Source: Eledone cirrhosa
Lineage: Eukaryota
Direction: 5' to 3'
NCBI GenBank assembly: GCA_964016885.1
Contig: OZ024742.1
Coordinates: 201,624,001 to 201,688,000 of the forward strand
Length of the DNA: 64,000 nucleotides
Shown here piece by piece: positions 21,161 through 64,000 of the stretch. The position numbers were made by a program, and so were the translations under genes. Below the pieces are notes generated by a model. That model had not been told where the DNA came from and did no database searches. It saw only the letters and a program-made list of their open reading frames with translations. Each line of letters opens with the position of its first letter. The stretch's first letter is position 1.

Positions 21161-21597
21161 AGTTAAAAGAATAGAGGTGTAACACACAAGTTATTATATA
21201 TTGGTAAACGGAATAGAAAATGCTGACAAATTGTTCACAGTTGAAAAATGGTTTAATTAGGAATAAAAGAGTATTAGTAATTGTATGGGTTAGTATTCAG
21301 TTGTGGTTTTAAGTTTTTAAGTTTTTACCGGTTGCGTATTTCTAAATGCTTTTCAAAAATAATTTTGAGATAGAGTGTCCGTGTTGTTTGCTCAGATCAG
21401 AGCAAACAACACGGACACTCTATCTCAAAATTATTTTTGAAAAGCATTTAGAAATGCGCAACCGGTAAAAACTTAAAAACTTAAAACCACAACTGAATAC
21501 TAACCCATACAATTACTAATACTCTTTTATTCCTAATTAAACCATTTTTCAACTGTGAACAATTTGTCAGCATTTTCTATTCCGTTTACCAATATAT
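21161..21597 (-). mobile_element. ~400-bp fold-back palindrome, copy 1 (subfamily B), with a one-sided ~35-bp tail
   Basis: Arms 21196-21393 and 21400-21597 are reverse complements (about one mismatch seen), with loop agatca. Homologous to 63810-64000. Confidence 0.92.
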
Positions 21598-21610
21598 ATA
21601 TATATATATA

Positions 21611-22135
21611 CGGCAAAAGGCCAGATGGCATGACCATCTTCCCGTTCCGCGGTGGCAAACCCCTCGTCTGGGATGCCACTTGCACCGACACTTTCTGCAG
21701 CCGCAACCTGGTGCAGTCTGCGACTGACCCAGGTTCTGATGCACGTCGGGCTGAGGGGGCCAAACTCTTCAAATACCGGTCGCTCTACGACAGGTTTGCT
21801 GCGTACCCCTGGCAGTGGAGACTTCTGCTGTCCTCGACCCCAGGGCTATCTCCTTACTCACCACCATAGGCGCTGAGCTGGCCAGCCGCAGGTGTGAGCC
21901 CCGCGAGTTGGCGTGGCTTTTCCAGCGCGTCTCCCTTGCCGTCCTCCGGGGAAACGCCTCCTCCATTCTGTCTGCGGGGGCTGTGTGTGGGTCCCCTCGC
22001 GTACCGTTGTAGTTGTTGTATAAAGATATTAACTCATCAATCCCATTGTCCTAATCCAAAAGTTCTTATTTATATTCTTACATGTAAATATAATTCCATA
22101 TTTTCTTCATTTAAAAATTCAATGAAGTTTAAGAC
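21611..22135 (+). mobile_element. 3' fragment of a restriction-like-endonuclease non-LTR retrotransposon (CRE-like)
   Basis: GKRPDGMTIFPFRGGKPLVWDATCTDT...KLFKYRSL, then after a frameshift VETSAVLDP...LFQRVSLAVLRGNASSIL. These are RPD..D and GNA motifs of RLE domains. Confidence 0.8.
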
Positions 22136-60345: not shown

Positions 60346-60925
60346 TTATGGAGGATAAGTATCTGAAAGTGTGTTAAGTTTATATGAGCTGGAAAGCAGG
60401 TGTGATTTCATGTGTGGGCAACTGGTGAAAATTTCACTCTTTGTGTTTAGGCAGGTCTTTGGTGATTTAAGGTTTTGCAAAATCCAATATTTTTCATTTA
60501 TGCAGAGCGTGCATTTTCTTGTTCCTCTTGCATATTCTTTAGATTGGTTCAAAATTGACCAATCCAATTTATATTGGGTACCTTGGTCTTTCAAATCCCA
60601 TATTCTGCTAGCCAGAGCTGTTGTAAATCTTTTTTCAGGATGTCGAAAGGATGCGACATGTGAGTAATAACGTGTTTTGAATTTGTCTTGCGTCATACCC
60701 ACATATCGTTCACTGGTGGCTGGTTGGTTGTTGCTGATGGTTGTCACTTTAGCCGCATATACAATGGCTTTGGTATTGCATTTACCTTGTAATGGGCATT
60801 CACTTTTGATTCTACAGGAGCAATTTTGATGTTCTCTAGGTGATTTTTTGTTGATTAAATAGGATTTAATGGGGGGACCGCAGAAGTAGCTAATTTTGAC
60901 ACAGTTTCTATTAAAGATCTTATAG
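60346..60925 (-). pseudogene. PLE 3' fragment with an uninterrupted GIY-YIG domain
   Basis: VKISY...[26 protein letters not shown]...[16 protein letters not shown]...CTLCINEK...LNTKSE. Confidence 0.9.
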
Positions 60926-61054
60926 TATATACATATATATATATATACATATATATATACATATATATACATATATATATATAAATATACATATACATAT
61001 ATATATATATATATATATATATATATATATATATATATATATATATATATATAT

Positions 61055-64000
61055 TTAAAAGAATAGAGGTGTAACACACGAGTTGTGATATATTGGTAAA
61101 AGGAAAAGAAAATGCTGACAAATTGTTCCCAGTGAAAATTAGTTTAATTAGGAATAAGTAAAAATTAGTAATAAGTATTGGTTAGTATTCAGTTTTAGTT
61201 TTAAGTTGTTACCGGTTGCGCATTTCTAATGCTTTTCAAAAATTATTTTGAGATAGAGCGCCCGTGATGTTTGCTCTAATCTGATTAGTTTTGGAAATTC
61301 CACCTATTTTATGTGAAAAAAGTGGCTCCAGATGTATTAAAATAAGTTTCGCGCCAATTCGTGTTGCAAAAATTCTTGTGGTCAAAACAATTTTGATTGA
61401 TTGGTAGAGGTCACGTGAATGTTAAAAATTGATTTTGCGCCAAATGTAGGTTTGTCGAAGAGTGTCCTTTTTCGCCTGATTGAGAAGTCGCTGAAAAATA
61501 AGTCTTTTAAGACAAATAAATGTGTGTGTGTGTCTAAAGTACTAAACTAATTTGGAAACACTCTCCACTTACACATAGAAAAGAACTGGAAGCGATATCT
61601 AGATGACTGCTTCATCCTTTAGGACGAAAACATCGAGAAACTTAAAGAATTTCACACCCTTATAAATGAGCTCAACATGAATATTAACTTTACGATGGAA
61701 TACAGCCATCAACAACTCCCCTTCCTCGACATCCTCATTAAGATTCATAACAAAAAAATAGAAACAGACATATACTACAAGCCCACAGACTCCAAGCAAT
61801 ATCTTCCTTTCAACTCTTGCCACCCTAGACACGTTAAAATTAATATTCCCTACAACTTAGCCAAGAGAATCTGTACTATAGTCTCCAATAAAAACACCTG
61901 TTAATTACGGCTACAAGAACTAAAGGACACACTCATAGGCAGGGACTACCGTGCATCACTAATTGACAATGGAATCCAACGTGCCCTAAAACTTAGTACC
62001 CAGGATCTTAGACCCCCTAAAGTAAATCAACCGAAACTAAAAGCTCTTCCATACATCTCCACACACAACCCTCTCAACAATGAGGCCTTTGACACCATCC
62101 TCCAGAACATCCCTGTGCTAAAAAAGGACCATAGAATGAACCAAATCCTTCGATCACACGATATCATAAAGAGTAAAAGACAATCTAAGTCAATGAAAAA
62201 CATCCTAACACATGCCAAAGTACTGCCAACCACAACAACGAAACCCACAGTAAAAAAATGCGATAGACCCAACTGTGGCATATGCATCAACCTAATAGAG
62301 GGTTCGGAATTCTATTTCAAAGAAGGACAACGTTTTATAGTAAAACACAATTTCACATGCGCATCAGAAAATCTAATATATGTATTAACTTGCTCAGGTT
62401 GTCGAGAACAATACATAGGCCAAACCAAAAATAGCCTCCGCCAATGCATGACTATCCATAGATCCCAAATTAAAATACGGGAATACAAGAAAATACCACT
62501 GAGGGAACACATTGATGCCTGTGCCGCCCAAAATCATCCCAACTTTAGAATCTTCCCCCTCTACAAATATAAAGATAATGCCACCCACACCCAGCGCATC
62601 AGCAAGGAATCTCACTTTATTAACAAATACGGACCCCGTCTAAACACTTCTCCCTAAGACGAACCCACATCATACACACGTCAACATACATACCTAGATC
62701 AGCATACATCCTACATATATCTCTATCCACATATAAACGCAATGACATACGTAAACACACATGTTCTATGGTGCAACACAAATATACACAAATTTGCATA
62801 CATTTGATGTCTATAGATATAAACGTGCCGATACACACACATACATATACGCCCACATGCATTGCACACTAATAGGCACATACATATTTGTACACAAGTA
62901 TTCCAATACGGCAGGGCCTAATGGATTCCCCTTGCAGTACGTACAATCTGGACACTCACACACACCTTGGTGTTATGACAATACTATATATCATTTCACA
63001 CCTTTTATTATTAATGTTTTTGATGTTCTCTTGAGAGAATCGTTTTTGCTGAAAATATCGAATAATGTACACCATTTTTACCAGTATCACAAACATACTG
63101 GTCCACCACCCCCACACACATTTACACACACACACACACATATATATACACACACACATACACACGCGTACACTAACATACAAAGAGACATATAGACACA
63201 CACGCACGCACACACACACACACACACACACACACACACACACACACACACACACACACACACACACACACACTTCTCCGTATAAGACAAGAGCTGAAAA
63301 ATAACTTTCAACATGTTAAAATATCCCCCACACACGTACAGACTCATTCCTACTGACCGATCCCTCTACCACGAATTACTCTGCTACACACACACACACA
63401 CACACACACACACACACACACACATATTTGTCTTAATAGGCACCTGAACTGTTCACCTTTCAACATGACTGCAATTCACACACACATCCCTACTGACTAT
63501 TATCACAACAATGAACCTCTTTACTACACACACACACACACACACACACACACACACACACACACACACACATATTTGTCTTAAAAGACTTATTTTTCAG
63601 TGACTTCTCAATCAGGCGAAAAAGGACACTCTTCGACAAACCTACATTTGGCGCAAAATCAATTTTTAACATTCACGTGACCTCTACCGACCAATCAAAA
63701 TTGTTTTGACCACAAGAATTTTAGCAACACGAATTGGCGCGAAACTTATTTTAATACCTCTGGAGCCACTTTTTTCACATAAAACAGGTAGAATTTCCAA
63801 AACTAATCAGATTAGAGCAAACATCACGGGCGCTCTATCTCAAAATAATTTTTGAAAAGCATTAGAAATGCGCAACCGGTACCAACTTAAAACTAAAACT
63901 GAATACTAACCAATACTATTACTAATTTTTACTTATTCCTAATTGAACTATTTTTCACTGGGAACAATTTGTCAGCATTTTCTTTTCCTTTTACCAATAT
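61055..64000 (+). mobile_element. 5'-truncated Neptune-type PLE with inverted terminal arms (61090-61533 vs ~63555-64000), putative parent of the 400-bp palindromes
   Basis: The arms are reverse complements, and their outer ~190 bp match the palindrome arms. The right end runs off the window. Confidence 0.88.
61540..62657 (+). pseudogene. PLE RT C-terminal half, Cys knuckle and GIY-YIG (two in-frame stops)
   Basis: WKRYLDDCF, LPFLDILI...TDIYYKPTDSKQYL.FNSCHP, CDRPNCGIC, LIYVLTCSGCREQYIGQT. Confidence 0.92.

What the first reader, a model, noticed from the sequence alone, without database searches (positions are those of the whole stretch)
21161..64000. Family of ~400-bp near-perfect hairpin insertions derived from a Neptune PLE 3' end, all turning at the same motif
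Seen: four non-coding palindromes (21161, 31046, 32055/32897, 45812) with ~190-200-bp arms. They match the last ~190 bp of the RT/GIY-YIG element at 61-64 kb, sit in TA tracts, and carry a ~35-40-bp tail on one arm only. Oriented by the tail, every inverted arm stops at gctct(a/g)atct. In the parent this position is a short self-complementary motif, ctaatc-a-gattag (~63813), at the base of a small stem-loop. The two subfamily-B copies have the same junction. There are no DNA-transposon-type TIR/TSD signatures. Known: PLEs can have inverted pLTRs and a short 3' extension. Inference: these are MITE look-alikes made by retrotransposition, through snap-back self-priming of cDNA at a programmed site or mobilisation of a hairpin RNA in trans. 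I do not know of a description of this family, but cannot search.
Basis: partly seen in the sequence, partly recalled or inferred. Interest (0 to 1): 0.88.

Follow-up and report, generated by a model that had tools for sequence, protein, structure and literature searches.

The report
Penelope hairpins record double-primed copying
These 400-base mirror-image repeats, present in over a thousand copies, are the shortest insertions of a young Penelope-type jumping gene, and their junctions indicate that two DNA copies were likely made from opposite sides of one cut and joined where the element's RNA is predicted to begin, rather than one copy folding back on itself.

Summary
The four hairpins, their one-sided 37-38-nt tails, TA targets and shared turning point are real; at least 1,292 hairpins occur genome-wide. 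They are not a separate MITE-like family. They are the shortest class of the known head-to-head insertions of a young RT/GIY-YIG Penelope-like element (Neptune/Nematis-type linker). Snap-back is not supported: the asymmetric centre faces the tail 28:24, the tail-less arm is the longer in 16 of 31 longer insertions, and other junctions show excess microhomology. Self-complementarity alone does not fix the turn: two 6-bp palindromes nearby give 8 and 1 hairpins against 1,066. The turn lies at the unit's only initiator-like motif with a TATA-like box 31-32 nt upstream. Best model (inferred): RT primes both strands of a cut TA tract from two adjacent RNA sites, both cDNAs run off the RNA 5' end, and their ends anneal. 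Against this: no RNA data, and 0 of 14 tandem pseudo-LTRs end there. The inverted-plus-tail layout and junction palindromes are published. This scan noted double priming and start-site centres before, on other DNA.

The parts
21157..21598 (+). Subfamily-B hairpin: tail 21157-21194, arms 21195-21396 and 21397-21598, one-mismatch centre
21066..21680 (+). 78-89-bp direct duplication of target DNA around the 21-kb hairpin (21066-21154 and 21592-21680); unusual for the family
31047..31477 (-). Subfamily-A hairpin, arms 31047-31440, tail 31441-31477; centre carries a short repeated insertion
32052..33272 (+). Subfamily-A hairpin 32897-33272; its tail (32052-32088) is separated by a mariner-type insertion (about 32093-32895)
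45810..46251 (-). Subfamily-B hairpin, arms 45810-46213, tail 46214-46251
61051..61533 (-). Tailed inverted arm of the long copy (tail 61051-61087, arm 61088-61533); mirror copy of the turn motif at 61276-61288
61534..62657 (+). 5'-truncated, broken RT-thumb/linker/GIY-YIG fragment, 95% identical in protein to residues 411-784 of the intact family ORF
62658..64000 (+). 3' UTR/pseudo-LTR of the long copy, ending without a tail in a TA tract
63778..63815 (+). Predicted core promoter: TATA-like CATAAAA at 63778-63784 and initiator-like TCAGAT with A at 63809, inside the self-complementary 13-mer 63803-63815 where the hairpins turn
   Evidence: motif prediction only

Best explanation
The hairpins are the shortest head-to-head insertions of a young RT/GIY-YIG Penelope-like element, likely made when the enzyme primes two cDNAs from opposite strands of a cut TA tract, both run off a fixed RNA 5' end predicted to be the pseudo-LTR transcription start, and the two ends are likely joined by microhomology. 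One cDNA starts at the distal RNA site and carries the tail; the other starts about 40 nt further in and has none. Both copy the same source sequence. The RNA end (arm position about 202-206) sets where the arms stop. The local self-complementary bases set the exact register: the 13-mer in subfamily A, GATC in subfamily B. Each hairpin is built anew, lacks the TATA-like box and is probably a dead end. Shown: anatomy, counts, junction symmetry, microhomology, arm concordance. Inferred: double priming (about 0.8). Predicted: transcription start as the cause of the fixed stop (about 0.6).
For: The centre faces the tail either way: A 14:11 among 30 loci (4 no tail call, 1 both), B 14:13 among 30 (3 no tail), pooled P=0.68. 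In 34 clean non-hairpin junctions the tailed arm is longer in 15 and shorter in 16 (3 undetermined). Microhomology of 2 nt or more is seen in 22 of 34 (null 18.8%), of 4 nt or more in 9 of 34 (null 3.3%). One A-to-G change between subfamilies shifts the centre by 2.5 bp: A centres 274, of them 218 single-base; B perfect 489, one-mismatch 302, double 1. Control 6-bp palindromes at arm positions 130 and 215 give 8 and 1 hairpins. Only 1 of the first 50 hairpins spans more than 74 nt between anchors although 81 was allowed. Of 44 initiator-like motifs in the 4.8-kb unit (both strands), the only one with a TATA-like box at -34 to -23 is the turn, kept in both subfamilies. Arms agree at polymorphic sites in 28 of 28 hairpins (52% of between-copy pairs differ). 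In vitro, a PLE cuts and extends both strands from two adjacent internal sites that bound the tail, and product length follows the template's 5' end (PMC11167929, parts 1-2 of 4 read).
Against: No RNA or cap data were available. None of 14 pseudo-LTRs upstream of complete units ends at 195-210: 5 are shorter and 9 longer, so many templates extend past the predicted start. Among the 34 clean non-motif junctions, which include long-plus-short pairs, only 1 has an arm ending at 200-210. The one mapped Penelope promoter is described as TATA-less and internal (PMC2377424, passages). Flipping of the centre by recombination between arms could also give a 50:50 split and was not excluded. 7 of 41 non-motif loci were dropped as unresolved before the microhomology count. 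The loci for these tests came from the first matches in contig C1 or from coding-selected copies.
Confidence: 0.55

Rival explanations
1. Double priming as above, but the fixed end comes from an RT stop, a protein-bound site or an RNA processing site at position about 203-208, or from capture of longer cDNAs at the self-complementary motif, not from the transcription start.
For: 0 of 14 tandem pseudo-LTRs end at the site. In subfamily A the 13-mer forms a -9.4 kcal/mol intermolecular duplex if cDNAs reach 208. About 4,697 arms read through the site.
Against: Subfamily B has only a 4-bp perfect palindrome yet 791 hairpins of its two main junction types, while 6-bp palindromes on either side give 8 and 1. 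No significant RNA structure. No hammerhead by Rfam or by core-motif scan.
Confidence: 0.27
2. Snap-back self-priming: the tailed cDNA folds back at the motif and copies itself to the TA site (first reader; related to the self-priming proposal in PMC3846280).
For: Explains identical arm haplotypes (28 of 28), the one-sided tail and the TA at the tail-less end. The predicted A junction exists 218 times.
Against: Predicts one centre orientation; 28:24 seen. The commonest B junction has no loop at all (489). The fold-back is very weak (-1.0 and -0.5 kcal/mol). Tail-less arms are the longer in 16 of 31 long insertions.
Confidence: 0.07
3. A non-autonomous hairpin RNA (MITE look-alike master) is mobilised in trans and copied as a unit.
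For: Uniform length (31 of 50 identical). One allele is enriched in hairpin arms (14 of 71 against 2 of 69 linear arms; arms are not independent).
Against: Three A sub-variants each occur with both centre orientations. The enriched B allele occurs with all three centre types (cross-read by locus). The commonest haplotype is shared with long copies (51 against 55 arms). Hairpins lack the TATA-like box.
Confidence: 0.08
4. A DNA-transposon MITE, or an assembly artefact.
For: Long terminal inverted repeats and TA flanks resemble Tc1/mariner MITEs superficially.
Against: Arms are 97-99% (B) and 80-86% (A) identical to the 3' end of an intact RT/GIY-YIG unit. The one-sided tail and a continuum of arm lengths up to 4.5 kb fit a PLE. 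In raw Illumina reads of run X24, 80 reads are counted over centre position 21394, 43 of them with the other known junction base.
Confidence: 0.02

Closest known systems
EN+ Penelope-like elements with an inverted 5'-truncated copy and one-sided 30-40-bp tail (Craig et al. 2021, PMC8557442, passages read)
   Same: Head-to-head layout, tail at one end, (TA)n targets, partial tandems, C-terminal GIY-YIG with CX2-5CxxC linker (Neptune/Nematis type).
   Different: In the passages I read, no fixed turning point or dominant 400-bp class is described; the origin of the inverted structures is called open. No hammerhead was found in this family.
Penelope elements of Adineta vaga (Arkhipova et al. 2013, PMC3846280, passages read)
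   Same: Palindromes at the inverted junction, optional tail, TATA/Inr-like motifs in the pseudo-LTR.
   Different: That paper reads the palindromes as self-priming on an antisense template; the junction statistics here favour two separately primed cDNAs.
Poseidon of Anolis carolinensis in vitro (Frangieh et al. 2024, PMC11167929, parts 1-2 of 4 read)
   Same: Both strands cut and extended, two adjacent internal RT start sites bounding the tail, AT-rich targets.
   Different: There the start site is not homologous to the target and a hammerhead is present. Here both start sites end in short TA matches to the target. In the parts read, that study does not explain inverted junctions.
L1 twin priming (recalled; seen only in the search listing)
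   Same: Two target strands prime on element RNA and the cDNAs join by microhomology.
   Different: L1 gives a 5' inversion without duplication and with TSDs; here both primers start about 40 nt apart, so the same 3' segment is duplicated.
MITEs of DDE transposons (recalled)
   Same: Short, non-coding, inverted-repeat, TA-flanked, high copy.
   Different: Arms come from a retroelement 3' end, ends are asymmetric, and copies appear to be built anew rather than excised and copied.

Membership tests
EN+ Penelope-like element | RT with C-terminal GIY-YIG endonuclease in one frame | tested here: met
   784-aa frame with RVT_1 (E 4e-7) and GIY-YIG (E 2e-6) in L220; 20 of 20 fetched loci chosen for it carry the 784-aa frame
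EN+ Penelope-like element | Partial tandems forming pseudo-LTRs, inverted 5'-truncated copies | tested here: met
EN+ Penelope-like element | 30-40-bp tail at one end | tested here: met
   37-38 nt in the window; one-sided in 25 of 30 and 27 of 30 hairpin loci
EN+ Penelope-like element | Hammerhead ribozyme in the pseudo-LTR (typical, not universal) | tested here: not met
   no Rfam hammerhead hit in 3 loci; no core motif in the L220 unit
Neptune clade | CX2-5CxxC linker before GIY-YIG (shared with Nematis) | tested here: met
   motif at residue 653; definition from PMC8557442
Neptune clade | Microsatellite (TA)n targeting | tested here: met
   TA run of 6 nt or more on the tail side in 38 of 41 rows and on the tail-less side in 38 of 41
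Neptune clade | RT phylogenetic placement with Neptune rather than Nematis | not tested
   no named reference sequences among the 120 listed homologues; no tree built
MITE (DDE transposon derivative) | Symmetric TIRs shared with a transposase partner, fixed TSD | tested here: not met
   ends are asymmetric and match the PLE 3' end; a TA TSD cannot be read inside TA tracts
Non-autonomous hairpin master family | Copies inherit one junction linked to arm haplotype | tested here: not met
Non-LTR retrozyme | Hammerhead ribozyme, head-to-tail tandem monomers | tested here: not met
   head-to-head layout and no hammerhead; definition from bioRxiv 10.64898/2026.07.22.740005 (passages)

The most novel reading that the evidence does not exclude
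The Penelope pseudo-LTR works like a retroviral R region. RT starts 200-250 nt from the cap on both strands of the cut, makes two strong-stop cDNAs, and these normally jump to the 3' copy of the same sequence to continue. The hairpins are failed jumps in which the two strong-stop DNAs were joined to each other. This would explain the tail, the inverted layout and the variable pseudo-LTRs in one scheme.
Probability: 0.15. Interest if true: 0.82.

Novelty: new variant of a known kind. Interest (0 to 1): 0.5.

Why it matters
How Penelope-like elements make their inverted repeats and one-sided tail is named as an open question (PMC8557442). This family gives over a thousand natural replicates of one junction with a built-in strand marker, a mismatched centre. 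That marker separates fold-back from double priming and names a single position to test for an RNA 5' end, in a family with many intact copies. It also warns that MITE finders could misfile such PLE stumps as DNA transposons, and that this element seeds many long palindromes in the genome.

Tried and rejected
Random sampling of 200 kb gave one young arm and was too sparse. The first tail-side script counted TA repeats as tail and was redone. One search listed several false diagonals per locus; one search kept one row per locus and dropped 7 of 41. Hammerhead cleavage as the cause of the fixed end: no motif found. RNA structure as an RT stop: not significant. Cap-templated extra C at the junction: the 10 non-standard A centres among the first 50 contain extra G or C, but most read equally as templated G203, so inconclusive. 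Strand transfer test: linkage across position 205 persists (r2 up to 0.62, one usable upstream site), so neither support nor refutation. No RNA holder was listed among sequencing runs; this is no evidence on expression. Locus-specific spanning of a whole hairpin by reads was not shown (no listed piece spans the stretch). Eight literature searches found no description of a fixed-turn PLE hairpin class; the library lacks most subscription papers, and Repbase and Dfam could not be searched. PMC8969392, PMC9977147 and PMC13282606 were read as passages only and added nothing on the mechanism. No supplements were read.

Full report
Observation. Self-comparison of the window confirms four near-perfect palindromes: 21195-21598, 31047-31440, 32897-33272 and 45810-46213, with 2 to 8 mismatches per 188-202-bp arm. 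Each has a 37-38-nt tail on one side; the third one's tail is cut off by a mariner-type insertion. The arms match the last 200 bp of the element at 61-64 kb. That element is not a parent but another head-to-head insertion: tail, 446-bp inverted arm, broken RT/GIY-YIG fragment, 3' UTR and a tail-less end in TA. I number arm positions from the tail-less end; the turn is at 198-203.

The family. The window lies in a 3.0-Gb genome; the host was not established. An exact 26-nt arm-start pattern occurs 12,180 times. Hairpins with both anchors exact number 1,292, control 0; 31 of the first 50 have the same span, 4 more the subfamily-A span, and 1 exceeds 74 nt of the 81 allowed. Four exact junction patterns sum to 1,066 hairpins against 4,697 arms that read through the site. 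So roughly three in ten arms that reach the site turn there; the patterns differ in length, so this is approximate. A protein search found many copies with an open 784-aa frame. Locus L220 holds a complete 4.8-kb unit of subfamily B: a 436-codon upstream frame, then RT and GIY-YIG in the -1 frame, with a CX4CxxC linker. The tail is the first 40 nt of the unit downstream of the pseudo-LTR. Mapping the first 100 arm starts on contig C1 shows one layout at all sizes: a tailed arm and a tail-less arm joined head to head, from under 100 bp to 4.5 kb. The hairpins are a hotspot within that continuum.

Snap-back or two cDNAs. In subfamily A the junction centre is a single T or A; in subfamily B one class has a single mismatch. 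Fold-back from the tailed cDNA fixes the orientation of that marker. Among the first 30 loci of each search it faced the tail 14:11 (4 no tail call, 1 both) and 14:13 (3 no tail), pooled P=0.68. The commonest B junction is a loop-less perfect palindrome (489), and fold-back energies are about -1 kcal/mol or weaker. In 34 clean junctions away from the motif (7 of 41 loci dropped as unresolved) the tailed arm was longer in 15 and shorter in 16, with 3 undetermined; a copy of the tailed cDNA cannot be longer than it. These junctions carry microhomology: 22 of 34 have 2 nt or more (null 18.8%) and 9 of 34 have 4 nt or more (null 3.3%). This fits two cDNAs, primed from either side of a cut, joined end to end. 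It also matches in vitro work in which a PLE cut and extended both strands from two adjacent RNA sites that bound the tail (PMC11167929). The two arms come from one source sequence: 0 of 28 hairpins differ between arms at two polymorphic sites, against 52% of between-copy pairs; for long copies 2 of 14 differ, against 34%. Later flipping of the centre by recombination was not excluded.

Hairpin master? Three A sub-variants each occur with both centre orientations. The B allele enriched in hairpins (14 of 71 arms against 2 of 69 linear arms) occurs with all three centre types. The junction is therefore rebuilt many times. The enrichment suggests that some source loci yield mainly hairpins, for example truncated copies that keep a promoter and the tail (inference).

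Why this position. One A-to-G difference breaks the 13-mer in subfamily B and creates GATC, and the centre shifts by 2.5 bp accordingly; local complementarity sets the register. It does not set the position: perfect 6-bp palindromes at arm positions 130 and 215 give 8 and 1 hairpins. The region has no significant RNA structure and no hammerhead. Read as RNA, the turn is an initiator-like TCAGAT with a TATA-like CATAAAA 31 (A) or 32 (B) nt upstream. It is the only such pairing among 44 initiator-like motifs in the unit (the motif definitions are recalled). I infer that cDNAs primed near the 5' end of the RNA run off at about position 202-206. Against this: there is no RNA evidence; 0 of 14 pseudo-LTRs upstream of complete units end at 195-210 (5 shorter, 9 longer); only 1 of the 34 non-motif junctions has an arm ending at 200-210; and the mapped Drosophila Penelope promoter is described as TATA-less (PMC2377424).

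Targets and reality. TA runs of 6 nt or more flank 38 of 41 rows on each side. Non-repeat duplications appear in 3 of 41, and only the window's 21-kb hairpin has one directly adjacent. Raw short reads from run X24 cover the centre with both known junction bases (80 reads, 43 with the other base). This argues against an assembly artefact for the class, though not for each locus.

Known or new. The inverted 5'-truncated copy with a one-sided tail is published for all EN+ PLE clades (PMC8557442). Palindromes at the inverted junction were noted and read as self-priming (PMC3846280). In eight searches I found no account of a fixed-turn hairpin class or of this strand-marker test; Repbase, Dfam and most subscription papers were out of reach, and no supplements were read. 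Unchecked notes of this scan report double priming and start-site centres for other PLE families; they are leads, not support. The family meets the tested PLE criteria except the hammerhead and has the Neptune/Nematis linker; the clade was not resolved.

Verdict. Real, a new variant of a known kind, interest 0.5. The value lies in the mechanism test, not in a new class of element.

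Noticed in passing
window 230-6621: A 3.1-kb inverted duplication (97% identity) of a different RT/GIY-YIG-like element in the same head-to-head layout; it gives no tblastn hit with this family's protein.
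   Followed up: no
window 33428-37033 and 52538-56971: Two more inverted-repeat-flanked stretches holding RT/GIY-YIG-like fragments of other families.
   Followed up: no
window 24711-24935, 37599-37782, 41630-42098, 44740-45021, 58038-58333: Older, 84-89% palindromes of unrelated sequence, some beside TA tracts; possibly hairpin stumps of other PLE families.
   Followed up: partly
window 60346-60920, minus strand: GIY-YIG-like fragment of another element abutting the TA tract beside the long copy's tail, next to a long (AAAAAT)n array.
   Followed up: no
window 25875-29816: Broken Helitron: Helitron_like_N and Pif1 2B domain hits.
   Followed up: no
L220, unit 5' region: A 436-codon upstream frame overlaps the RT frame by about 70 nt in the -1 phase, suggesting a two-ORF or frameshift arrangement; my notebook's earlier figure of about 470 aa was wrong.
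   Followed up: partly
L220, tail and following 30 nt: Eight bases of the tail can pair with a stretch just downstream, enclosing the distal start site; a candidate signal for RT start.
   Followed up: partly
G000:C2:359515902-359534021: Five head-to-tail copies of a truncated unit at about 3.9-kb spacing, next to an inverted copy.
   Followed up: no
L032, L034, L035, L038, L105, L154 and others: Many hairpins keep the centre but have one arm cut short, and several short two-armed copies lack the centre; possibly decay of palindromes by deletion.
   Followed up: partly
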